DNA of 64,000 nt, taken from positions 1-64,000 of IMG/VR virus record IMGVR_UViG_3300031823_000003; one strand, 5' to 3'. Source of the DNA: a virus. Position 1 is the first letter of the stretch. Each line of letters starts with the position of its first letter. The translations under genes and the position numbers were made by a program. The notes under the pieces are model-generated. The model did not search any database. It saw nothing but the letters and a program-made list of their open reading frames with translations, and had not been told where the DNA came from. Below, one piece after another: positions 1 through 41,950 of this stretch.

Positions 1-139
1 GAGCACAGGCACGAGCACAGGCACGAGCACAGGCACGAGCACAGGCACGAGCACAGGCACGAGCACAGGCACGAGCACAGGCACGAGCACAGGCACGAGC
101 ACAGGCACGAGCACAGGCACGAGCACAGGCACGAGCACA
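1..139 (+). repeat. Tandem 12-bp repeat (GAGCACAGGCAC)x11+, running off the window edge; in frame with the polymerase as (STGT)n
   Basis: Read directly. Frame +2 is stop-free from position 2 into the 182 ORF. Confidence 0.95.
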
Positions 140-7456: not shown

Positions 7457-7897
7457 GTGAATGCGTCTAACCGTATCGCGGTCCACTGCCGGTATTGCAA
7501 TCTCAATCAGTACGAAACTGTGTCCCGCAAGTGCCGGAGGTGCGGGAAATGGCTGTACAAGCAGGACGAGGATAAAGACAAGAACAAGGGCGAAGAGACT
7601 TTGCCTGCATCGGACGTATTGGCTACATCAGTAGTATCTCCATGCATACACTACGATTCCTACTCGTTCTGGTTTCCACTCATTATCACCGCTCTGCGCG
7701 AGTTAAACGGTCTGTCACAACGCCAATATGCTCATCAGGTAGGCGTGAGCAGGCAGTACCTGAGCCGGATCGAGCGCGGGCACACCATACCCTATGTAAG
7801 ATTAATGCCGAAGTTTACAGATGGACTAGGTGTGTCGATGCACAGGATGCTGGAACTGTGCGAGGCGTGCATGGCGGCTACGGCTATGACAGGATAA
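7457..7897 (+). CDS. Zn-ribbon plus XRE-family HTH transcriptional regulator
   Basis: CRYC..CRRC; LRELNGLSQRQYAHQVGVSRQYLSRIERG. Confidence 0.85.
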   Translation: MNASNRIAVHCRYCNLNQYETVSRKCRRCGKWLYKQDEDKDKNKGEETLPASDVLATSVVSPCIHYDSYSFWFPLIITALRELNGLSQRQYAHQVGVSRQYLSRIERGHTIPYVRLMPKFTDGLGVSMHRMLELCEACMAATAMTG

Positions 7898-7901
7898 TAG
7901 G

Positions 7902-8303
7902 CTATGGAATGATCACCGGAAACCTCATCGGGTCGGTGATGGACTCGTAAGGCGACTGGTACCTCTGTATAAACGAACACAAGCTGCAAGCAATCACTGC
8001 TACGCTTATCTGTTGTACGTTGTCATAGTCTCGAAATATTGTTATGCAATTCTGCCAGTGACCGCAGCCGCAAACCCATAAACCTGAATTTTCGGCCCAA
8101 ATTTGACCGCTCGTAGGGTAAGCCAAAAACGGCTGGTTAACCTGCTGTTGCGGAAAAACCGTTGTGTTAGGGCCATTTGGCTGACTCCACCGCGTCCCAC
8201 CGAAGTTCTTGATATATAGCGTTCCTTGGGGCGGAAGATTTCCGGCAGGCATAGTCAATTCCTCTCGCGTGAATGTTACTATACTGTTGTCTGTCTGTGC
8301 CAT
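7902..8303 (-). CDS. Hypothetical protein with C-terminal Zn-binding motif
   Basis: CGCGH...CSLC. Start is either 8303 or the internal ATG (MPAG) preceded by GAGGA. Confidence 0.6.
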   Translation of the reverse strand: MAQTDNSIVTFTREELTMPAGNLPPQGTLYIKNFGGTRWSQPNGPNTTVFPQQQVNQPFLAYPTSGQIWAENSGLWVCGCGHWQNCITIFRDYDNVQQISVAVIACSLCSFIQRYQSPYESITDPMRFPVIIP

Positions 8304-8384
8304 GCTTAGCCGTGTTCAGCTATGTATCCGCTCAGCTCAGCCATGTCATGCCGCGTTGCGCCGAGTCTTGCTGTGGTTTGTATC
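8299..8384 (+). repeat. Pentamer array 1: 17 units of G-Y-Y-N-N (one 1-nt slip at 8329); candidate guide ncRNA
   Basis: gccat gctta gccgt gttca gctat gtatc c gctca gctca gccat gtcat gccgc gttgc gccga gtctt gctgt ggttt gtatc. Confidence 0.85.
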
Positions 8385-8385
8385 A

Positions 8386-8432
8386 GGCCGGGAGACTCCA
8401 ATCTTCGATGGTCTTCCGGCCCGCTATTTTTT
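8386..8432 (+). terminator. Hairpin (GGCCGGGAGAC...TTCG...GTCTTCCGGCC) plus T-tract directly after array 1
   Basis: 11-bp outer stem with one G-U pair, C(UUCG)-type loop, TATTTTTT downstream. Confidence 0.7.
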
Positions 8433-8434
8433 CC

Positions 8435-8463
8435 TTGACTGATTAACTTAATTAAGTTAATTT
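8435..8463 (+). promoter_or_regulatory. Promoter TTGACT-N17-TAATTT overlapped by a perfect 20-bp palindrome ATTAACTTAATTAAGTTAAT (8442-8461)
   Basis: Read directly; the -10 lies 6 nt before the GTG of the HTH gene. Confidence 0.75.
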
Positions 8464-8469
8464 GTTCAT

Positions 8470-8685
8470 GTGAGCGGGCACAAGCATTATACGGAACAGC
8501 ACCTTCGTAGTCTTCTTAAAAAACACCTTCACTTTGGCGATATGCATCAATCCGCGCTGGCTCGGCGCATCGGTGTGTCTCCGGCGTTTTTATCAAAGGC
8601 GCTGGGAGGAGAGCCGTTGACGGGGAAGATTGTGAAATGGCTGGGGTACAGGAGAGTGAAGATCAGAGTTTTTGAAAAGTTGTGA
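8470..8685 (+). CDS. Small Cro/XRE-like HTH protein of the pentamer-array cassette
   Basis: QSALARRIGVSPAFLSKALGG HTH. Confidence 0.8.
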   Translation: MSGHKHYTEQHLRSLLKKHLHFGDMHQSALARRIGVSPAFLSKALGGEPLTGKIVKWLGYRRVKIRVFEKL

Positions 8686-8688
8686 TCC

Positions 8689-8823
8689 GTTCCGCCAAGC
8701 CGTGCTGTGGTGTATTCAGTTGCGCTCTGCCTGGTCGAGCCGCGCTAGGTTACGTTGTGCCGGGTCAGGTTAAGTCGTGTTTTGTATCGTTCGGTTTAGT
8801 CGAGCCGAGCTACGTCTCGCTGT
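8689..8823 (+). repeat. Pentamer array 2: 27 in-phase G-Y-Y-N-N units; candidate guide ncRNA
   Basis: 24 of 27 units start GYY and there is no phase slip (gttcc gccaa gccgt gctgt ... gtctc gctgt). Confidence 0.9.
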
Positions 8824-8851
8824 CGTGCCAAATTTAAAGTAGAATCACGCA

Positions 8852-9505
8852 ATGCCAAAAAGTGTACTCGAAAGCGGTAACAAAGACCATCTGTCCAATA
8901 CGAGCAACGGAGCGTCCAGTCAGATAGAAATGACCGAGCCTTATGTCGCGCATATCGACCTACAGGGCGTATGCCCGATCATTTTTCACCGCTGGAACGT
9001 GGAATCAGTCGAGGCCAAGTCCGCGTCAGCCAAAGGATCAAAAGCGAAAAATACGGACGACGTGGAATCGTTTGTCAGCCGCGACGACAAGGGAATCATC
9101 TGTGTTCCGGGAGAATATCTGCGGCAGGCCGTGCTGCATGCCGCCAAGTTCCGCCAAGACCCGAGATCGCCGCGCAAATCATTTTCGGACTTGGCGAAAG
9201 CTGGAATATTTTCTATCGACGAACTGGTGCCAATCACGAGTGCATCCGGCAAGCTAGCAAAGGAATGGGACTATCTGGATCGCCGCCGCATGACGGTACA
9301 GAGAAATTCGATTACCCGGTCGCGTCCGGCATTTCACGCGGGATGGCGGGCACAGTTTCACTTGCAGGTGGTGCTACCGGAATACATCAGCCCTTCGTTT
9401 TTGAATGACCTTATTCAACTCAGTGGGAAAGTTATCGGTTTAGCCGATTCCCGTCCTTCGTATGGGCGATTTCTTGTGGTAGGGTTCAAGACATCGGAAG
9501 TTTAA
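8852..9505 (+). CDS. Solo Cas7/RAMP-like protein
   Basis: N-terminal strand IDLQGVCPIIFH; VPGEYLRQAV (RAMP 'IPGSSLKG'-like); thumb region R..V......RSRP; W...F.L.V strand; C-terminal Gly-rich loop GKVIGLADSRPSYGRF. Confidence 0.75.
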   Translation: MPKSVLESGNKDHLSNTSNGASSQIEMTEPYVAHIDLQGVCPIIFHRWNVESVEAKSASAKGSKAKNTDDVESFVSRDDKGIICVPGEYLRQAVLHAAKFRQDPRSPRKSFSDLAKAGIFSIDELVPITSASGKLAKEWDYLDRRRMTVQRNSITRSRPAFHAGWRAQFHLQVVLPEYISPSFLNDLIQLSGKVIGLADSRPSYGRFLVVGFKTSEV

Positions 9506-9508
9506 ACA

Positions 9509-9728
9509 GGTGAGGCGAGCCGGGATTTGCCTTGCCGTGTTGAGTTCCGCCCGGATTCGTTCTGCTTCGCTAAGCTATGTTTAGTTGAGCATAGCCGAGA
9601 TACGCCGGGTTATGCTTGGCTCCGTTTCGATTGGCCTAGATTTACTTAGCTGAGTCGAGTTGTGCTGTGCTGTATTGAGTCCCGCTTTGACGGGCCGTGC
9701 TTGGCTGCGCCGAACTGCGTTGCGCTAT
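9509..9728 (+). repeat. Pentamer array 3: 44 in-phase G-(Y)-Y-N-N units; candidate guide ncRNA
   Basis: G at position 1 in 41/44 units, pyrimidine at position 3 in 43/44, no phase slip over 220 bp. Starts 4 nt after the RAMP stop. Confidence 0.92.
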
Positions 9729-10213
9729 TGACCTGCGGCTCCAGTGGTGCTAACTGCTGGGGCCGTTTGTTCAGCGGGACGGACCGCTGACCAGTCTCCA
9801 AAACAGTAATTGGTGATTGCGTCCGCCGCTATTTTACGGACAAAACTATCAAACGGCTCCCCGGCGGATTCAGCCCAAGTTTGCATCGGCTCGCAGGCTT
9901 CCAAGGGGATTTCTATTTCGACCAGCAGACCGCCGCCCGGACCCTTGCGCGGCCCGGTAGATATACCCTGCGATGCGGCCAATTTTCGGACTTTGGCGAG
10001 CTGGTCCGGGGATAGTCCGGAGATGAACGCGCTGAGATCGGCGGACACAGTAGGATCAGTCTTGGCGATTGAAGCGCCTGATGCCGCTGCCTGCTGACCT
10101 GTGCTCGGCGGATCGGCGAGTGGATTAGTATCTGGTCTGTCGCCCGGTACTATATTCGCAGGCGTACCTGTGCCCGTGCTCGCGCTTGTGTTCGTGCTCG
10201 TGTCCGTACTCAT
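9725..10213 (-). CDS. Hypothetical protein
   Basis: GAGGTG RBS before the ATG at 10213 (MSTDTST...); the longer ORF-track start overlaps the endolysin. Confidence 0.65.
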   Translation of the reverse strand: MSTDTSTNTSASTGTGTPANIVPGDRPDTNPLADPPSTGQQAAASGASIAKTDPTVSADLSAFISGLSPDQLAKVRKLAASQGISTGPRKGPGGGLLVEIEIPLEACEPMQTWAESAGEPFDSFVRKIAADAITNYCFGDWSAVRPAEQTAPAVSTTGAAGQ

Positions 10214-10251
10214 AGTCTCACCTCTTCGTAGCTGCGCTCTGAATTGGCGTT

Positions 10252-10740
10252 TCAAATCAGTCCTACTTCCTGCCACACGGCTTGTATGCCGCCGTCCATA
10301 AACAATTGCCGCAGATTGTCGTCTGGCTCGCCTTCCGGCCAAGGCCCGGTGAGCTGAAAATGCGGCGCGTCCGGAAAGGTCCGCCACAATACACCTGAAT
10401 CCAGTCCCAGACTGATACCCTTGGCCTCCATACTTTTCCATACCGGGTGGGATGAATTCCAGTCAGGGAAGTATGGCTTATCGGGTGCGAACTGGGATGG
10501 CACACAATCAACGGCCAAGCCGTAATTGTGATAACTGTATCCGCCTTGAACGTTGGTGACAATGTTACCCGGAGCGGTTCTGCCTTGAGTGTACAGCGTG
10601 TCCTGCTCTGCCCATGTCCGCATACCCTGTACGACGCGGATATACACGTTATCCTGCTCCAGCATGGCGGCGAGAGTGTGAGTTTTAGCGGCTAGTGCCG
10701 GACATACCTGTCGCAATCGGGCTTCGGAGACGGCATCCAT
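10252..10740 (-). CDS. Endolysin, M15 family L-Ala-D-Glu peptidase
   Basis: RTWAEQDTLYTQGRT..GNIVTN..GGYSYHNYGLAVD...DAPHFQ. Confidence 0.92.
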   Translation of the reverse strand: MDAVSEARLRQVCPALAAKTHTLAAMLEQDNVYIRVVQGMRTWAEQDTLYTQGRTAPGNIVTNVQGGYSYHNYGLAVDCVPSQFAPDKPYFPDWNSSHPVWKSMEAKGISLGLDSGVLWRTFPDAPHFQLTGPWPEGEPDDNLRQLFMDGGIQAVWQEVGLI

Positions 10741-39200: not shown

Positions 39201-41950
39201 GCATTGAGTTGCCGCGTCCAGTTGGTGCCGTTCGGAATCGCGTTGAGATAGTCGCTGATCGAGGTGGCGGCGCGAGTATAGTAACCGCCTGCGGCATCTG
39301 CACCGATCGCCGTATCACTTGCATCTCCTGACGCAACTGCCGCCGTAGCCGCTGACTTCGCGGGGTTGGAATCCACCAGCGTAATAATGTCGTTCGGCGG
39401 TGAGGCAAAGGGGCCAAAGTTAATATCACCCTTGGAGTTTAGTGTTTTCCCGGCAGGCTGAAACAGATCAGTCCACTGATTGGCATTGGTTTTACCGAGA
39501 CATGTCATTCTTGCGGGAGAGCGAAAAGGCGCAGTTCCGCCTTGGCTGCAAGTCGGAGCCACGAAAGATATACCCGTAGGCCCCAGCGTAGAAACTGTGC
39601 CTAGGGCAGTTGATCCGAAATCCGCCTGGATCGGAGTGTTTGCGTCGTTAACCAGATTAGCTGGCCAGAACCAAAAAGCGGTCTGAAAGGTAGTCGTGGA
39701 TGGCACCGTATAAGAACTGGCGGAAGCCTGCGTATCGGTAAAACTGCAAATCCCCGCCGTATTACATGACCCGCTGATGCCGGTAGCGATGGCAAAGTTT
39801 CCCGTTCCAAACGGCGGCACAGCAGACGACCCGACTGTCACTAACACATCCCAGGTCAATGTTCCGATGGAGGTATGGGCCAACCCTTCTTGTAGATCAA
39901 TCGAAGGCCACTGGAGAGGAATACTCACAGCGCCACTGGTAGGCTGTGCAAAGCCAATGAACAGCGGTGGATTAGCGCCGTATACCGAACCATGCGGTAC
40001 CACAAAATAATTGCGTTGGGTTGTGGGACTACCGCCACTCGCAAATGTTGGAACCGCGCCGGCAATGGGGAACGTTCCTACTATCTTGGAGCCGAACTGA
40101 CCACCAGCTAGCAGCATACCCATCTGCGCGTTGGTGATGCCATACAGAGGGTTCGTTATACCGCCCTGAGCCTCATAGATATTGCTCATCGTGCCCGATA
40201 CGAACGAGCCGAAATAGCGGATCCCGAATACCGGGTTAGCCTGGCAAACTGTGTTATCGATTGATACACCGTTACCGGCATTGCCGGAGTCATAGCAGTT
40301 GATATTGGTCAACTCGGTGTTGTGAATGTACATGATCCCGGCGTTTCCGGAATCGGTCCGGGAATAAAAGAAAGCTCCTATAGGCCAGTTCGCTGTGGTT
40401 TTAATGACCGCTGTAGAGCGGTTAGTAGCTCCTGTAATCTGAAGCTGCTGATCGTTGTCGTCCACAACGCCATAGCTGAATGCGCCTGTCGCTGCCGAGG
40501 GAAACAACTGGATCAAGTGGAGATTGTCGATGATGACGTGGTCGGAAGCGTCTTCGATCGCGGCGTTTTCTATCCCGGTGAAGCCGAATGTGGTATCGCC
40601 CGCTGAGAATGTACTGCTGCCCAGCGAAACTGTATAACTGGTCGAGCTCGGCGTGGTGAGCACCGTGGCAATGAATTTAGAATCTGTCGTCTGGGAGTGG
40701 ACTTCCACCGCAGCCTGATCGCCGACTACAAAGGGGTGAGTGGTTGCCGTAGTGATTGTGATTGTGCCGCTGCTTGCCGATGCACTGGAAATCTGAGCGC
40801 CGTCTATGTTCAGTGTCGATCCCATCGAGAGATTAAAGAGCTTGTGGTAGCCGATCCCAGTAGGAGGGCTGCCGACGTAGATGCACCGGTCACGGGTGGA
40901 GCAGGCAATGAATGCGCCTGCGCCGTCCAGCACGCCGCCGCGTCCACGCATGTATACAGTGGCATACACGCTGTAGGTTGTGCTGCTCATTAATTTGACG
41001 TAAGGCGAGGCTGAATTGCTGGCATCGTGCGGAGTGTCCGAGGTCCATGCGTCGTTCCACGCTTCCTGGATACCGGAAGATGCGGAGCCGACCGTGTACC
41101 CGGCAGAGTGCGCGTTGACAGTGACGCCTGTGATGGTTCCGCTGCCTACCCCAGCGGTACAAGTGCCGCCTGTGACTACAATCTGTTCCGGGGTGCCGGT
41201 GCCCGCGATCCGCACCGGGTAGACGTAGTTATTGGCGGCGGAATTGGTATCGATGCCAAGCGGACAGGGGGCTAAATGGATCGTAACCGCTCCCGGAACA
41301 GTGAGATTGTCCGAAGGCGATTGCGACCAGTTCCATGACGGCGTGACGTTACGGACGAAATTCTGGTTGTTCATGGTGAACGGGGTGCTCTGACAGGGCG
41401 ACCCCGAACAGGGCTGTATGATGTTTTGCGCGGCAACGGGGATTTTATTGACATCGCCGGTGCCGGCGGTCGCGCACACCCATGCGGAGCCATTCCATTG
41501 AAGGACTTGGGAGGCAGAGCAGGTGGTAATGAGACTGATGGGGACCGTGCCGCTGGTTCCGCCGCCAGTCAGACCTGTGCCGGCGGTGACGCCTGTGATA
41601 GTGCCGCCGCCGCTGGACCCGCCGCCTGTATTGCACACCCATGCGCCGTTGAGATATACGGCGATGACTTGAGAGGAGCCGACGGTGCAGGGATTGGAAC
41701 TAAGAGAGCAATTGGAGCACAGGACGGTGGTGCCGGGCTGGGGAAATGGAGTGGAAGTGATCTGGTCGAAGGTGAGCGGTCCGGTGTAAAGGCCGAGGGT
41801 GAAATCGTTGGGAGCGGTCCACACATTGGGCAGGTCTGTTGCACCGTAAGAATGCTGAACCTGAGTTTGCGCCGCAATCCCGATGAATAAAAATATTGTT
41901 GCCAGCCCCAAACGGACGAACCTGCCCATGCCCGTACTCATGCGTTTCAC
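36233..41950 (-). CDS. Giant (1905 aa) fibre/adhesin-like protein with signal peptide and beta-helix regions
   Basis: MGRFVRLGLATIFLFIGIAAQ; VTAGTGLTGGGTSG and QVLQWNGSAW fibre motifs; Cys pairs. Confidence 0.75.
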   Translation of the reverse strand: MKRMSTGMGRFVRLGLATIFLFIGIAAQTQVQHSYGATDLPNVWTAPNDFTLGLYTGPLTFDQITSTPFPQPGTTVLCSNCSLSSNPCTVGSSQVIAVYLNGAWVCNTGGGSSGGGTITGVTAGTGLTGGGTSGTVPISLITTCSASQVLQWNGSAWVCATAGTGDVNKIPVAAQNIIQPCSGSPCQSTPFTMNNQNFVRNVTPSWNWSQSPSDNLTVPGAVTIHLAPCPLGIDTNSAANNYVYPVRIAGTGTPEQIVVTGGTCTAGVGSGTITGVTVNAHSAGYTVGSASSGIQEAWNDAWTSDTPHDASNSASPYVKLMSSTTYSVYATVYMRGRGGVLDGAGAFIACSTRDRCIYVGSPPTGIGYHKLFNLSMGSTLNIDGAQISSASASSGTITITTATTHPFVVGDQAAVEVHSQTTDSKFIATVLTTPSSTSYTVSLGSSTFSAGDTTFGFTGIENAAIEDASDHVIIDNLHLIQLFPSAATGAFSYGVVDDNDQQLQITGATNRSTAVIKTTANWPIGAFFYSRTDSGNAGIMYIHNTELTNINCYDSGNAGNGVSIDNTVCQANPVFGIRYFGSFVSGTMSNIYEAQGGITNPLYGITNAQMGMLLAGGQFGSKIVGTFPIAGAVPTFASGGSPTTQRNYFVVPHGSVYGANPPLFIGFAQPTSGAVSIPLQWPSIDLQEGLAHTSIGTLTWDVLVTVGSSAVPPFGTGNFAIATGISGSCNTAGICSFTDTQASASSYTVPSTTTFQTAFWFWPANLVNDANTPIQADFGSTALGTVSTLGPTGISFVAPTCSQGGTAPFRSPARMTCLGKTNANQWTDLFQPAGKTLNSKGDINFGPFASPPNDIITLVDSNPAKSAATAAVASGDASDTAIGADAAGGYYTRAATSISDYLNAIPNGTNWTRQLNASGETLTVPETNTTLTQGKPIGGGVGGLKTQIPEFHSVLFPGFTVDSMQALCNITPTLPCNVHIDAPLSSTPVTATNVVIGSTTQSVTMYLHGANIQCNTTAGACFSIGQNGNLVGYSPGNLSSGTLITTTIGFTGTAVITNSVTTGLQTSFNMSGLQIAPTNTSVITCGIVCINAVEGNTDIRNVNIQGIANTINWTFEDATSGSVADNNNVRLDNSKSYSGGKVNSIDYAVFGGAGGSGDGYVFTNLNGGDGCMGVFDGVTMCGVTMTEKVTTVNCGTNCNQVTLNGGSTFNFNTAHTGELFWVNGVAATICGPSYLGCSSLAVDPTSTVLYVTTVAGWPITTTGSAHWGCVGGNGCFIDLNGAAGRGSTLNNIHIDNSYIEGNAAQQPGSEYMAVQNVRNLEAPNLAWNVGPAVADCIGLYHTVANNQGRMHVAGRINGGHHCTEVFNNNITGNIYFLDSASQWDFDVTYAGDQSGPGTVFDSNITTSGVLGWTNGSGVNDVGISRESAGTLDIGNGAQGNTSGNVKMGALTVTSCSGCAIIGIGSSAFNVTIATTNTGTTATSMLGGAQTIPAGNLVATSPLNIDIGGIYTLPASYTGTVTIAAFVDGAQIATTGAFSVPSTAVTNGSWSVQCQLTTYTAGVSGTYAFGCPVQLLPTNTTTITLNGGSLAVSGTTAINTTIAHTFDLKWTWSTATGAPSVTGQWGTALVGGSGVNTFTDTLTNSPLNALPAASVAGNSVEATVSNNRVISQNGTLNGMYYMPGSQALRYHRWTTYAGGAATSSVLLNNDALAITCSTSSAIVPTSTASQMLACLTTVTNGNVSNVNGSAVYIPGAVNIWFNAYAAVGTLATTRWWLGFTNTTTANIGGTDTCSTFHCAAFTYSSTSAVSSTDFLCTTNAGGTGTQTQVDSGVAVVAGTPHVFDIREDTANSKWYFYIDGVSKCSSPITTTLPTATLRAGEFITNNGSASVAAQADFGWIETWTDH

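What the first reader, a model, noticed from the sequence alone, without database searches (positions are those of the whole stretch)
8280..9728. Solo Cas7/RAMP-like gene embedded among three phased GYY-NN pentamer arrays: candidate non-CRISPR RNA-guided system
Seen: three intergenic arrays (8299-8384, 8689-8823, 9509-9728; 17+27+44 units) keep a strict 5-nt period. Positions 1-3 are conserved (G-Y-Y) and positions 4-5 vary freely. They flank a small HTH gene and a 217-aa protein with RAMP/Cas7 hallmarks (VPGEYLRQAV helix, basic thumb segment, C-terminal Gly loop GLADSRPSYGRF). No cas1, cas5, cas6, cas8 or CRISPR repeat-spacer array was seen in the window. The units differ from each other, so this is not slippage, and a 5-nt period does not fit coding. 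Established: Cas7-type RAMPs polymerise along guide RNA with a fixed nucleotide step per subunit. Inference: each subunit binds one GYY triplet and presents the NN for pairing, so the guide is written discontinuously in the NN positions. It could target competing phages or host promoters, perhaps by silencing. From memory this resembles recently reported viral RAMP + GGY/NN repeat ('VIPR'-type) loci, which needs verifying; here the constant triplet is GYY (RRC on the other strand). The cassette exactly fills the gap between two minus-strand genes, like an inserted module.
Basis: partly seen in the sequence, partly recalled or inferred. Interest (0 to 1): 0.95.

Follow-up and report, generated by a model that had tools for sequence, protein, structure and literature searches.

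The report
Soil-phage VIPR locus with GYY-NN guides
This is a real example of the phage VIPR system described in 2026 preprints (a lone Cas7-like protein plus guide RNAs made of five-base repeats), so it is a new member of a known kind whose only unusual trait is a G-Y-Y rather than G-G-Y constant triplet.

Summary
Three + strand arrays (8299-8384, 8679-8823, 9509-9728) have a 5-nt period: G 93-96%, Y 82-93%, Y 96-98%, then two free bases. They are the only such arrays in the 86-kb phage genome.

The 217-aa protein (8852-9505) is a Vipr homologue. Its only PDB hit is the SUSP1 Vipr protein, 36pp (E 0.0031 alone; 1.8e-10 as a family profile, near full length). In 188 of 209 distinct homologue loci a same-strand pentamer array lies within 200 nt of the gene.

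This scan has also noted it on other DNA: 698 notes in at least 449 genomes.

The local peculiarity is GYY instead of GGY. It goes with Ser in the G-loop column where SUSP1 has W178 and most relatives have Phe. That link rests on one clade and does not hold as a simple rule in distant GTT-NN lineages.

No targets were found in 1.2 Mb of local DNA. No RNA data exist.

The parts
8299..8384 (+). vrRNA array 1: 6 GYY-NN units, one extra base (8329), then 11 units
   Evidence: score 10 for 8330-8379. Its promoter is not identified: no + strand call was made there.
8386..8432 (+). Hairpin (8386-8421) plus a run of six T (8427-8432): intrinsic-terminator-like 3' end, or tail, of the array 1 RNA
   Evidence: -22.2 kcal/mol, z -3.64, 1 of 200 shuffles as good. 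The consensus scan did not list it. L082 has a hairpin plus T-run at the same place.
8435..8463 (+). Candidate promoter TTGACT (8435-8440), 17 nt, TAATTT (8458-8463). A perfect 18-bp palindrome (8443-8460) fills the spacer and is the likely operator of the HTH protein.
   Evidence: Read from the sequence. The block is conserved in the 82%-identical relative L082 while the flanks diverge. The scan tool did not call it. The operator role is inferred.
8470..8685 (+). 71-aa HTH gene with a GTG start about 7 nt after the -10, so probably leaderless. Candidate local repressor or vap-like accessory gene.
   Evidence: Pfam HTH_26 E 0.013 (below the curated cut-off) and HTH_3 E 0.033. phrog_1468 transcriptional repressor, E 9.6e-5. 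Its only homologue among the ORFs of the loci held then (L001-L226, own-genome locus left out) is in L082, at 46% identity.
8679..8823 (+). vrRNA array 2: 29 units between the HTH gene and vipr, with no structured tail before the vipr start
   Evidence: score 23. The 8815-8860 fold is no better than shuffles (z 0.41).
8852..9505 (+). vipr gene: 217-aa Vipr-family (RAMP/Cas7-like) protein
   Evidence: PDB 36pp_D (SUSP1 Vipr): E 0.0031 alone and 1.8e-10 with profile A1, positions 33-204 against chain 5-189. phrog_4652, E 5.9e-12. 5064 relatives at E <= 0.001.
9509..9728 (+). vrRNA array 3: 44 units with no indel, directly after the vipr stop codon
   Evidence: score 32.
9735..9794 (+). Two hairpins (9735-9766, a 14-bp stem followed by UUUGUU, and 9767-9794): candidate terminator or 3' tail of the operon transcript. 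They overlap the 3' end of the convergent gene 9725-10441.
   Evidence: -39.5 kcal/mol, z -3.59, 0 of 200 shuffles as good.

Best explanation
This is a VIPR (Viral Interference Programmable Repeat) locus of an uncultured soil phage.

Shown by homology and anatomy: a Vipr-family protein gene sits among three same-strand pentamer arrays with a fixed triplet and two free bases.

Inferred from the published SUSP1 system: the arrays are transcribed. Array 1 would be its own small RNA ending in a hairpin terminator. Arrays 2 and 3 would be part of a leaderless HTH-vipr operon read from a palindrome-bearing promoter. Vipr protomers would polymerise one per pentamer, sequester G-Y-Y and present each NN. 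The filament would bind double-stranded DNA whose sequence reads NN-x-NN-x (1-nt skip) and block transcription of a competitor element.

Local variant: the second scaffold base is a pyrimidine, not G. The G-loop residue that stacks on G2 in SUSP1 (W178; Phe in most relatives) is Ser here, so protein and guide scaffold appear co-adapted. The 71-aa HTH protein most likely represses its own operon through the 18-bp palindrome.
For: Protein.
- The only PDB match is the SUSP1 Vipr protein.
- Six of the ten SUSP1 contact residues named in 720927 section 5-6 are identical in the alignment: H17=H46, K33=K61, E71=E88, R138=R158, D177=D199, R179=R201.

Arrays.
- 5-nt period with G/Y/Y fixed and NN free.
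- They are the only such arrays in the 86 kb, all on the vipr strand.
- 79 of 80 IMG/VR homologue loci have a 5-nt periodic region.
- 188 of 209 distinct loci have a + strand array within 200 nt of the gene. Only 8 have one more than 1.5 kb away, and none has arrays on the minus strand only.

Guide diversification.
- 8354-8377 and 8688-8711 are 83% alike.
- By my reading, 3 of their 4 differences fall at N4 and 1 is a Y-to-Y change.

Transcript ends and promoter.
- Hairpins follow arrays 1 and 3.
- The promoter and palindrome are conserved in L082.

Context.
- The genome is a phage: DNA polymerase, endolysin, portal and terminase are present.
- No Cas1 and no CRISPR-like repeats.
- No self-target under the 1-nt skip rule, as the paper reports for its systems.
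Against: - No RNA evidence: no RNA run holds the stretch.
- The fold was not predicted (closed).
- No target was found in 831,681 + 364,173 bases of local DNA. The best 1-nt-skip score was 16 of 20, no better than shuffled guides.
- Arrays of 29 and 44 units are far longer than the 9-16 repeats of SUSP1 vrRNAs, and I could not place vrRNA boundaries.
- Array 2 has no tail.
- No Rfam hammerhead or any other family matched.
- In SUSP1, perturbing the GGY motifs abolished silencing, so GYY guides work only if this protein is adapted to them. That adaptation is inferred, not shown.
- The HTH gene is not family-wide: it has a homologue in only one other fetched locus, L082.
Confidence: 0.85

Rival explanations
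1. It is a working Vipr-guide system, but in this GYY clade the targeting rule or substrate differs from SUSP1: another skip length, RNA targets, or one very long filament per array rather than 9-16-unit guides.
For: The scaffold triplet and a G2-contact residue differ. Arrays run 29 and 44 units without internal tails. No 1-nt-skip target was found. The paper itself lists several array architectures.
Against: Skip 0, 2 and 3 gave no targets either, apart from the arrays matching themselves at skip 3. K33, the residue that contacts the target backbone beside the skipped base, is conserved as K61 in all 154 distinct proteins. The local search space was small, so the blank says little.
Confidence: 0.1
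2. It is a decaying or inactive VIPR remnant. The arrays drifted from GGY to GYY after the protein lost its G2 contact, and nothing is guided any more.
For: The canonical G2 and the aromatic G-loop residue are both absent. No targets were found.
Against: G1 and Y3 are still 93-98% conserved and the phase is kept over 44 units. The same GYY scaffold is kept in relatives at 82% and 51% protein identity: L082 has 0 of 28 G at position 2, and L143 has 1 of 21. The protein family is strongly conserved, with 39 invariant columns in A1. An identical locus occurs in a second soil study.
Confidence: 0.04
3. The arrays act as DNA, not RNA: iteron-like binding sites for the HTH or another protein, or a structural DNA element.
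For: The arrays flank an HTH gene. No transcription data exist.
Against: The arrays track the vipr gene, not the HTH gene: 188 of 209 loci have arrays, while only L082 has an HTH homologue. They are always on the vipr strand. The free NN positions do not fit repeated protein-binding sites. The likely HTH operator is the separate 18-bp palindrome. In SUSP1 such arrays are RNAs that co-purify with Vipr.
Confidence: 0.01

Closest known systems
VIPR systems, with the type II system of Escherichia phage SUSP1 as experimental reference (bioRxiv 10.64898/2026.04.26.720920, Results and three Methods sections read; 10.64898/2026.04.26.720927, two Results sections read; PDB 36pp)
   Same: A lone Vipr (RAMP) gene in a phage, with no CRISPR array or Cas1. 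Same-strand pentamer arrays lie upstream and downstream with a fixed triplet and variable NN. A small DNA-binding-type gene lies beside it. The G-loop, helix-1 and thumb motifs, and 6 of 10 named contact residues, are conserved.
   Different: The triplet is G-Y-Y, not G-G-Y. Ser replaces W178. Arrays run 29 and 44 units without the invariant tail or pseudoknot, against 9-16 repeats plus a tail. The protein is distant: E 0.0031 as a single sequence, and tblastn against 50,697 phage records found only Phage DSL-LC04, not SUSP1. The VIPR type (I-VII) cannot be assigned because the type definitions sit in figures and supplements I could not see.
Divergent VIPR-like clusters with non-canonical 5-mers (bioRxiv 10.64898/2026.10.21.760802, passages of section 2.3 read)
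   Same: Period-5 arrays with a fixed triplet other than GGY, next to a Vipr-like fold. That paper counts 21 clusters and 6,318 sequences.
   Different: The motifs named in its text are GAC, CAC, WGT and TGH. GYY, GUU and GTT do not occur in its main text. Its Fig. S10 was not visible, so GYY may or may not be there.
Class 1 CRISPR Cas7 backbone filaments
   Same: Works like them: RAMP subunits polymerise along a guide RNA at a fixed step, and a thumb flips bases out of the duplex. This is as stated in 720927 section 5-6.
   Different: It is not a member. There is no CRISPR repeat-spacer array, no Cas1, no Pfam RAMP or Cas7 match (0 families for this protein and none among the 39 family members), a 5-nt rather than 6-nt step, and double-stranded DNA triplex binding in the reference system.
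Solo vrRNA genes of VIPR-null phages and satellites (bioRxiv 10.64898/2026.10.15.759431, abstract and passages seen)
   Same: Array 1 is a self-contained unit (array plus hairpin plus T-run) set apart from the vipr operon, like a stand-alone guide gene.
   Different: Here the cognate vipr gene lies 470 nt downstream, so it is not solo. Its tail is a plain hairpin, which was not compared with the SUSP1 consensus tail.

Membership tests
VIPR system | Vipr-family protein (homology to the described or solved Vipr) | tested here: met
   The only PDB hit is 36pp_D, SUSP1 Vipr: E 0.0031 for the single sequence and 1.8e-10 with the 39-sequence profile over positions 33-204 against chain 5-189.
VIPR system | RAMP fold: RRM core, glycine-rich loop, thumb | not testable with these tools
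Indirect evidence only: the G-loop and helix-1 motifs align, and 6 of 10 named contact residues are identical. The ESM Atlas holds a model (pTM 0.76) whose nearest neighbours are unnamed viral proteins.
VIPR system | Tandem pentamers with a fixed triplet and hypervariable NN, beside vipr on the same strand | tested here: met
   for the window. 188 of 209 distinct homologue loci meet it.
VIPR system | Canonical GGY triplet | tested here: not met
   Position 2 is G in 4 of 77 called units and Y in 66 of 77. The paper allows 'a related consensus' and lists NNNGG, YNNNG and NNNNG, so this does not exclude membership.
VIPR system | No CRISPR array and no cas operon; viral or proviral genome | tested here: met
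   The record is a virus record of 86,324 bp with phage genes. Cas1 is absent, with controls positive. No spaced repeats were found. Only Cas1 was searched by family.
VIPR system | Accessory vap gene | tested here: inconclusive
   A 71-aa HTH gene lies in the operon, and the paper says types II, VI and VII have DNA-binding vaps. Its only homologue among the fetched loci is in L082. No vap sequence was available for comparison.
VIPR system | Arrays transcribed into vrRNAs that bind Vipr | not testable with these tools
   No RNA run holds the stretch. Only DNA contigs could be laid.
VIPR system | Guides match natural targets by the 1-nt skip rule, with no self-target | tested here: inconclusive
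   There is no self-target: the best score is 16 of 20, equal to shuffles. No target was found in 1.2 Mb of fetched loci either. No database-wide search was run.
VIPR system | Structured 3' tail after the repeat tract | tested here: inconclusive
   Stable hairpins follow arrays 1 and 3 (z -3.6 each), and none follows array 2. No internal tails were found and no Rfam ribozyme matched.
CRISPR-Cas class 1 (Cas7) | CRISPR repeat-spacer array, adaptation and other cas genes, Cas7/RAMP profile match | tested here: not met
   (no array, no Cas1). (no Pfam RAMP family in this protein or in 39 relatives).

The most novel reading that the evidence does not exclude
The two G-loop residues aligned with SUSP1 D177-W178 may act as a small 'scaffold code' that sets which fixed triplet a Vipr accepts.

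Evidence within the family: the pair Asp + Phe/Tyr occurs in 145 of 148 GGY-type proteins. Among low-G sets it occurs only in L212, which has Asp-Phe but 41% G.

Evidence outside the family: it appears in none of the G-pyrimidine-pyrimidine lineages I could read. The window clade has D-S or D-Q. Distant GTT-NN lineages have D-N, E-W, E-L, R-F and T-F.

Switching the scaffold would make a phage's Vipr and guides orthogonal to rivals'. That would protect it from the guide hijacking by solo vrRNAs described in the October 2026 preprint.
Probability: 0.2. Interest if true: 0.55.

Novelty: new member of a known kind. Interest (0 to 1): 0.3.

Why it matters
As a locus it adds little. VIPR is already described, and this scan holds hundreds of notes on it.

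Three things have some value:
- It belongs to a very large, mostly viral clade of soil and sediment Vipr proteins: 5064 database relatives, found in phages and MAGs of many phyla. In Phage DSL-LC04, the only GenBank phage record matched, the homologue is mis-annotated as an HTH regulator.
- It is a natural G-Y-Y scaffold variant with a matching change at a residue that contacts G2 in the solved structure. That gives a concrete, cheap mutational test of how Vipr reads its scaffold, and of whether orthogonal Vipr/guide pairs can be engineered.
- The operon has a clear candidate control element: a leaderless HTH gene behind a palindrome-bearing promoter.

Tried and rejected
- Structure prediction and fold search were not possible (closed).
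- DNA around the closest relatives (P0001 at 98%, P0002-P0018) could not be fetched (closed). The G, N and L variants of the G-loop column therefore remain untested.
- RNA evidence: no RNA holder is listed. The contigs of X2 are identical where they cover the stretch, so they gave no strain variation to exploit.
- Targets: none in the own genome plus 154 loci, and none in 68 further loci that included two terminase relatives at 78-79%.
- Cassette-free relatives, to test the 'inserted module' idea: the flanking gene has no IMG/VR relative.
- Rfam: no family matched.
- Pfam: no family matched this protein or any of 39 relatives above noise.
- Rejected idea: 'loss of the aromatic residue is a general rule for a pyrimidine at position 2'. 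In the tree the S and Q rows that have DNA lie in one clade, together with the L, N and G rows that lack DNA (18 rows, support 97/95), so this is one event. L107 (Gln, 72% G), L019 (Met, 70% G) and L129 (His, 72% G) keep G. L212 has Phe with only 41% G. Distant GTT-NN lineages keep Trp or Phe.
- Rejected idea: the HTH gene as a family-wide vap.
- VIPR type assignment was not possible. Supplements are closed and figures are not held, so fig. S17 of 720920 and Fig. S10 of 760802, which may already show GYY-type logos, could not be seen.
Full report
**Observation.** The region was read directly. The three intergenic stretches show lag-5 autocorrelation of 0.46-0.50 against about 0.2 at other lags. 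The two genes between them show none. A sliding scan of the whole window flags only these three regions, plus a weak stretch at 39931-40002 inside a 1905-aa ORF.

With the G placed first, array 2 is G 0.96 / Y 0.93 / Y 0.96 / free / free. Array 3 is G 0.93 / Y 0.82 / Y 0.98 / free / free. Array 1 has a one-base slip: 6 units, an extra C at 8329, then 11 units. Array 2 begins two units inside the end of the HTH gene.

A phase-aware scan of the complete 86,324-bp record finds only these three arrays (scores 10, 23 and 32), all on the + strand. Twenty shuffled genomes gave 0-3 segments at the minimum score of 6.

**The protein.** The 217-aa ORF has no Pfam family and hits an unnamed PHROG (phrog_4652, E 5.9e-12). 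Against all PDB sequences its only hit is 36pp chain D, 'SUSP1 Vipr protein', at E 0.0031. A profile of 39 relatives (A1) raises this to E 1.8e-10 over profile positions 33-204 against chain residues 5-189, again the only hit.

The family is large. There are 5064 database proteins at E <= 0.001. In IMG/VR, 396 of 418 candidate stretches were confirmed. In species-representative genomes, 65 of 121 were confirmed, spread over Planctomycetota, Acidobacteriota, Pseudomonadota, Bacillota and others.

**Do homologues carry arrays?** Yes. 79 of 80 IMG/VR loci contain a 5-nt periodic region. Among 209 distinct loci with a recognisable gene, 188 have a + strand G-N-Y pentamer array within 200 nt of the gene: 118 of 194 upstream and 129 of 188 downstream. 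Only 8 have one more than 1.5 kb away, and none has arrays on the opposite strand only.

**What is known.** VIPR is in print. I read the Results and three Methods sections of bioRxiv 10.64898/2026.04.26.720920. They describe the following:
- A lone RAMP homologue (Vipr), usually with one vap gene, mostly in phages and proviruses.
- vrRNAs of 9-16 YNNGG repeats plus a 3' tail.
- Recognition of double-stranded DNA by the NN dinucleotides with one skipped base.
- Transcriptional repression of competing elements.
- Seven types.
- Alternative repeats NNNGG, YNNNG and NNNNG.

I also read two Results sections of 10.64898/2026.04.26.720927. One protomer binds per repeat. G1 is read by H17 and D177. 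G2 is held by R138 and W178. Y3 sits in a pocket formed by E71, M72, R179, C173 and T175. K33 lies on the target backbone.

Passages of 10.64898/2026.10.21.760802 report 21 period-5 clusters with non-canonical triplets (GAC, CAC, WGT, TGH) beside Vipr-like folds. For 10.64898/2026.10.15.759431 I saw the abstract and passages.

The strings GYY, GUU and GTT do not occur as repeat motifs in the main text of the three papers searched for them. Paper 720927 was not searched for them. Figures and supplements could not be seen.

This scan has met VIPR often: 698 notes in at least 449 genomes.

**Locus anatomy (part shown, part inferred).**
- Array 1 is followed by a stable hairpin (8386-8421, -22.2 kcal/mol, z -3.64) and six T. 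This fits a separate small RNA. Its promoter is not identified.
- Next comes TTGACT, 17 nt, TAATTT, with a perfect 18-bp palindrome in the spacer. A GTG start follows about 7 nt after the -10, which implies a leaderless HTH mRNA.
- The same block (TTGAC, the TTAACT..AGTTAA half-sites, TAAT) and the same leaderless spacing are kept in L082. Its Vipr is 82% identical but its HTH protein only 46%. I infer an autoregulated operon. The consensus scanner did not call this promoter.
- Array 2 runs into the vipr start without structure (z 0.41).
- Array 3 ends in a 14-bp hairpin followed by UUUGUU and a second hairpin (-39.5 kcal/mol, z -3.59).
- The HTH gene has a homologue only in L082 among the ORFs of the loci held at that point, so it is not a family-wide vap.
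- The end of array 1 and the start of array 2 share a 24-nt segment at 83% identity. By my reading, 3 of its 4 differences fall at N4 and one is a T/C change at position 2. That is what guide duplication followed by reprogramming would look like.

**The GYY variant.** The register is fixed by two anchors. The two free bases directly precede the conserved G, as they precede G1 in YNNGG. The most conserved pyrimidine directly precedes them, as Y3 does. The base that differs is therefore G2.

In the profile alignment, H17, K33, E71, R138, D177 and R179 are identical here. W178 is Ser200.

I compared 154 distinct family proteins that have at least 15 called units:
- The 148 with at least 47% G at position 2 have, in that column, Phe 144, Tyr 1, Met 1, Gln 1 and His 1.
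- The six below 45% have Ser 3, Gln 2 and Phe 1.
- The other nine contact columns do not separate the two sets.

Pooled over loci, position 2 is G in 0.79-0.80 of units beside Phe-type proteins (3133, 1935 and 2126 units). Beside Ser-type proteins it is 0.02-0.05.

Against a causal reading:
- In a 65-row tree the S and Q rows that have DNA fall in one clade, which also holds the L, N and G rows that lack DNA (18 rows, support 97/95). This is one evolutionary event.
- Gln, Met and His rows outside that clade keep 70-72% G.
- L212 has Phe with 41% G.

Ten loci have a distant Vipr-like ORF (A1 profile, E 1.3e-8 to 7.9e-3). Eight of those have arrays within 2.5 kb, with T at position 2 in 0.63-1.00 of units. 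Their G-loop pairs at the D177-W178 columns are R-F, E-L, E-W, E-L, T-F and D-N by hmmalign. For L274 and L294 I read E-W by eye from the C-termini.

So an aromatic residue is compatible with a pyrimidine at position 2. What these lineages lack is the Asp-aromatic pair. That is a post-hoc pattern from a motif-biased sample and low-scoring alignments. I offer it only as the novel case.

**Targets.** Using 10-unit windows of arrays 1b, 2 and 3 and skip lengths 0-3, I searched the phage's own genome plus 154 distinct loci (831,681 bases). The best 1-nt-skip score was 16 of 20, while shuffled guides reached 16-17. The only 20 of 20 scores were the arrays matching themselves at skip 3. A further 68 loci (364,173 bases), including the two closest terminase relatives, gave nothing at or above 17 of 20. 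There is thus no self-targeting, and the natural targets remain unknown. A database-wide gapped search was left out (see Tried and rejected).

**Context.** The record is an IMG/VR virus contig with CheckV completeness of 84% and GC 0.55. The cassette sits between a + strand early/replication block (DNA polymerase, HNH, a repressor-like HTH) and a - strand block (endolysin, HNH, then virion genes). The window has no tRNA.

Two soil metagenome runs from two studies hold the stretch. One is probably the source. The other covers 8200-8589, 9043-9207 and 9360-9850 with no differences, so the same arrays exist unchanged in a second sample.

**Verdict.** This is a genuine VIPR locus: a new member of a known kind, with a GYY scaffold variant. 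The high novelty score is not warranted, because the class was published in 2026.

Noticed in passing
window 1-139: A perfect 12-nt tandem repeat (GAGCACAGGCAC, 11.6 copies) lies at the very start of the contig, just before the DNA polymerase gene. It could be a genome terminus, a terminal repeat or an assembly artefact.
   Followed up: no
L227 3010-3627 (Phage DSL-LC04, OR003939.1 22429-23046): The only GenBank phage record with a tblastn match to this Vipr (48.8% identity, E 8e-57) annotates the gene as 'helix-turn-helix transcriptional regulator'. This is probably a mis-annotation of a vipr gene.
   Followed up: partly
L231, L347, L292, L233, L309, L335, L274, L294 (IMG/VR contigs): GTT-NN pentamer arrays (T at position 2 in 63-100% of units) lie beside distant Vipr-like ORFs with varied G-loops: R-F, E-L, E-W, T-F and D-N at the SUSP1 D177-W178 columns. 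G-pyrimidine-pyrimidine scaffolds therefore recur in several Vipr lineages.
   Followed up: partly
L212 (Candidatus Dormiibacterota MAG contig): This Phe-type Vipr has arrays with only 41% G at position 2. It is an exception to the Phe-GGY association.
   Followed up: no
window 8354-8377 and 8688-8711: A 24-nt segment is shared at 83% identity between the end of array 1 and the start of array 2. Its differences fall mostly at the first free base, which looks like guide duplication and reprogramming.
   Followed up: partly
window arrays 2 and 3 (units at 8714, 9644, 9674, 9714; G-A units at 9524, 9554, 9599, 9629, 9639, 9689): A few units start with A instead of G, or have A at position 2. The unit GTATC ends both halves of array 1 and recurs once in array 2. 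These could mark guide boundaries, but their spacing is irregular.
   Followed up: no
L082 about 75-105: The 82%-identical relative has a run of about 30 C between the array 1 terminator and the operon promoter. The window has nothing there.
   Followed up: no
window 7457-7897: A 146-aa protein just upstream of the cassette has a clear HTH_3 domain (E 5.3e-12) behind an N-terminal segment with two CxxC pairs, plus a weak MqsA-antitoxin match (E 0.0083). It hits phage repressor PHROGs.
   Followed up: no
window 9725-10441 and 10252-10740: The two minus-strand ORFs downstream of the cassette overlap by 190 nt as listed, so the 238-aa ORF probably starts further in. The second ORF is an endolysin (phrog_15351, E 3.2e-25).
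   Followed up: no
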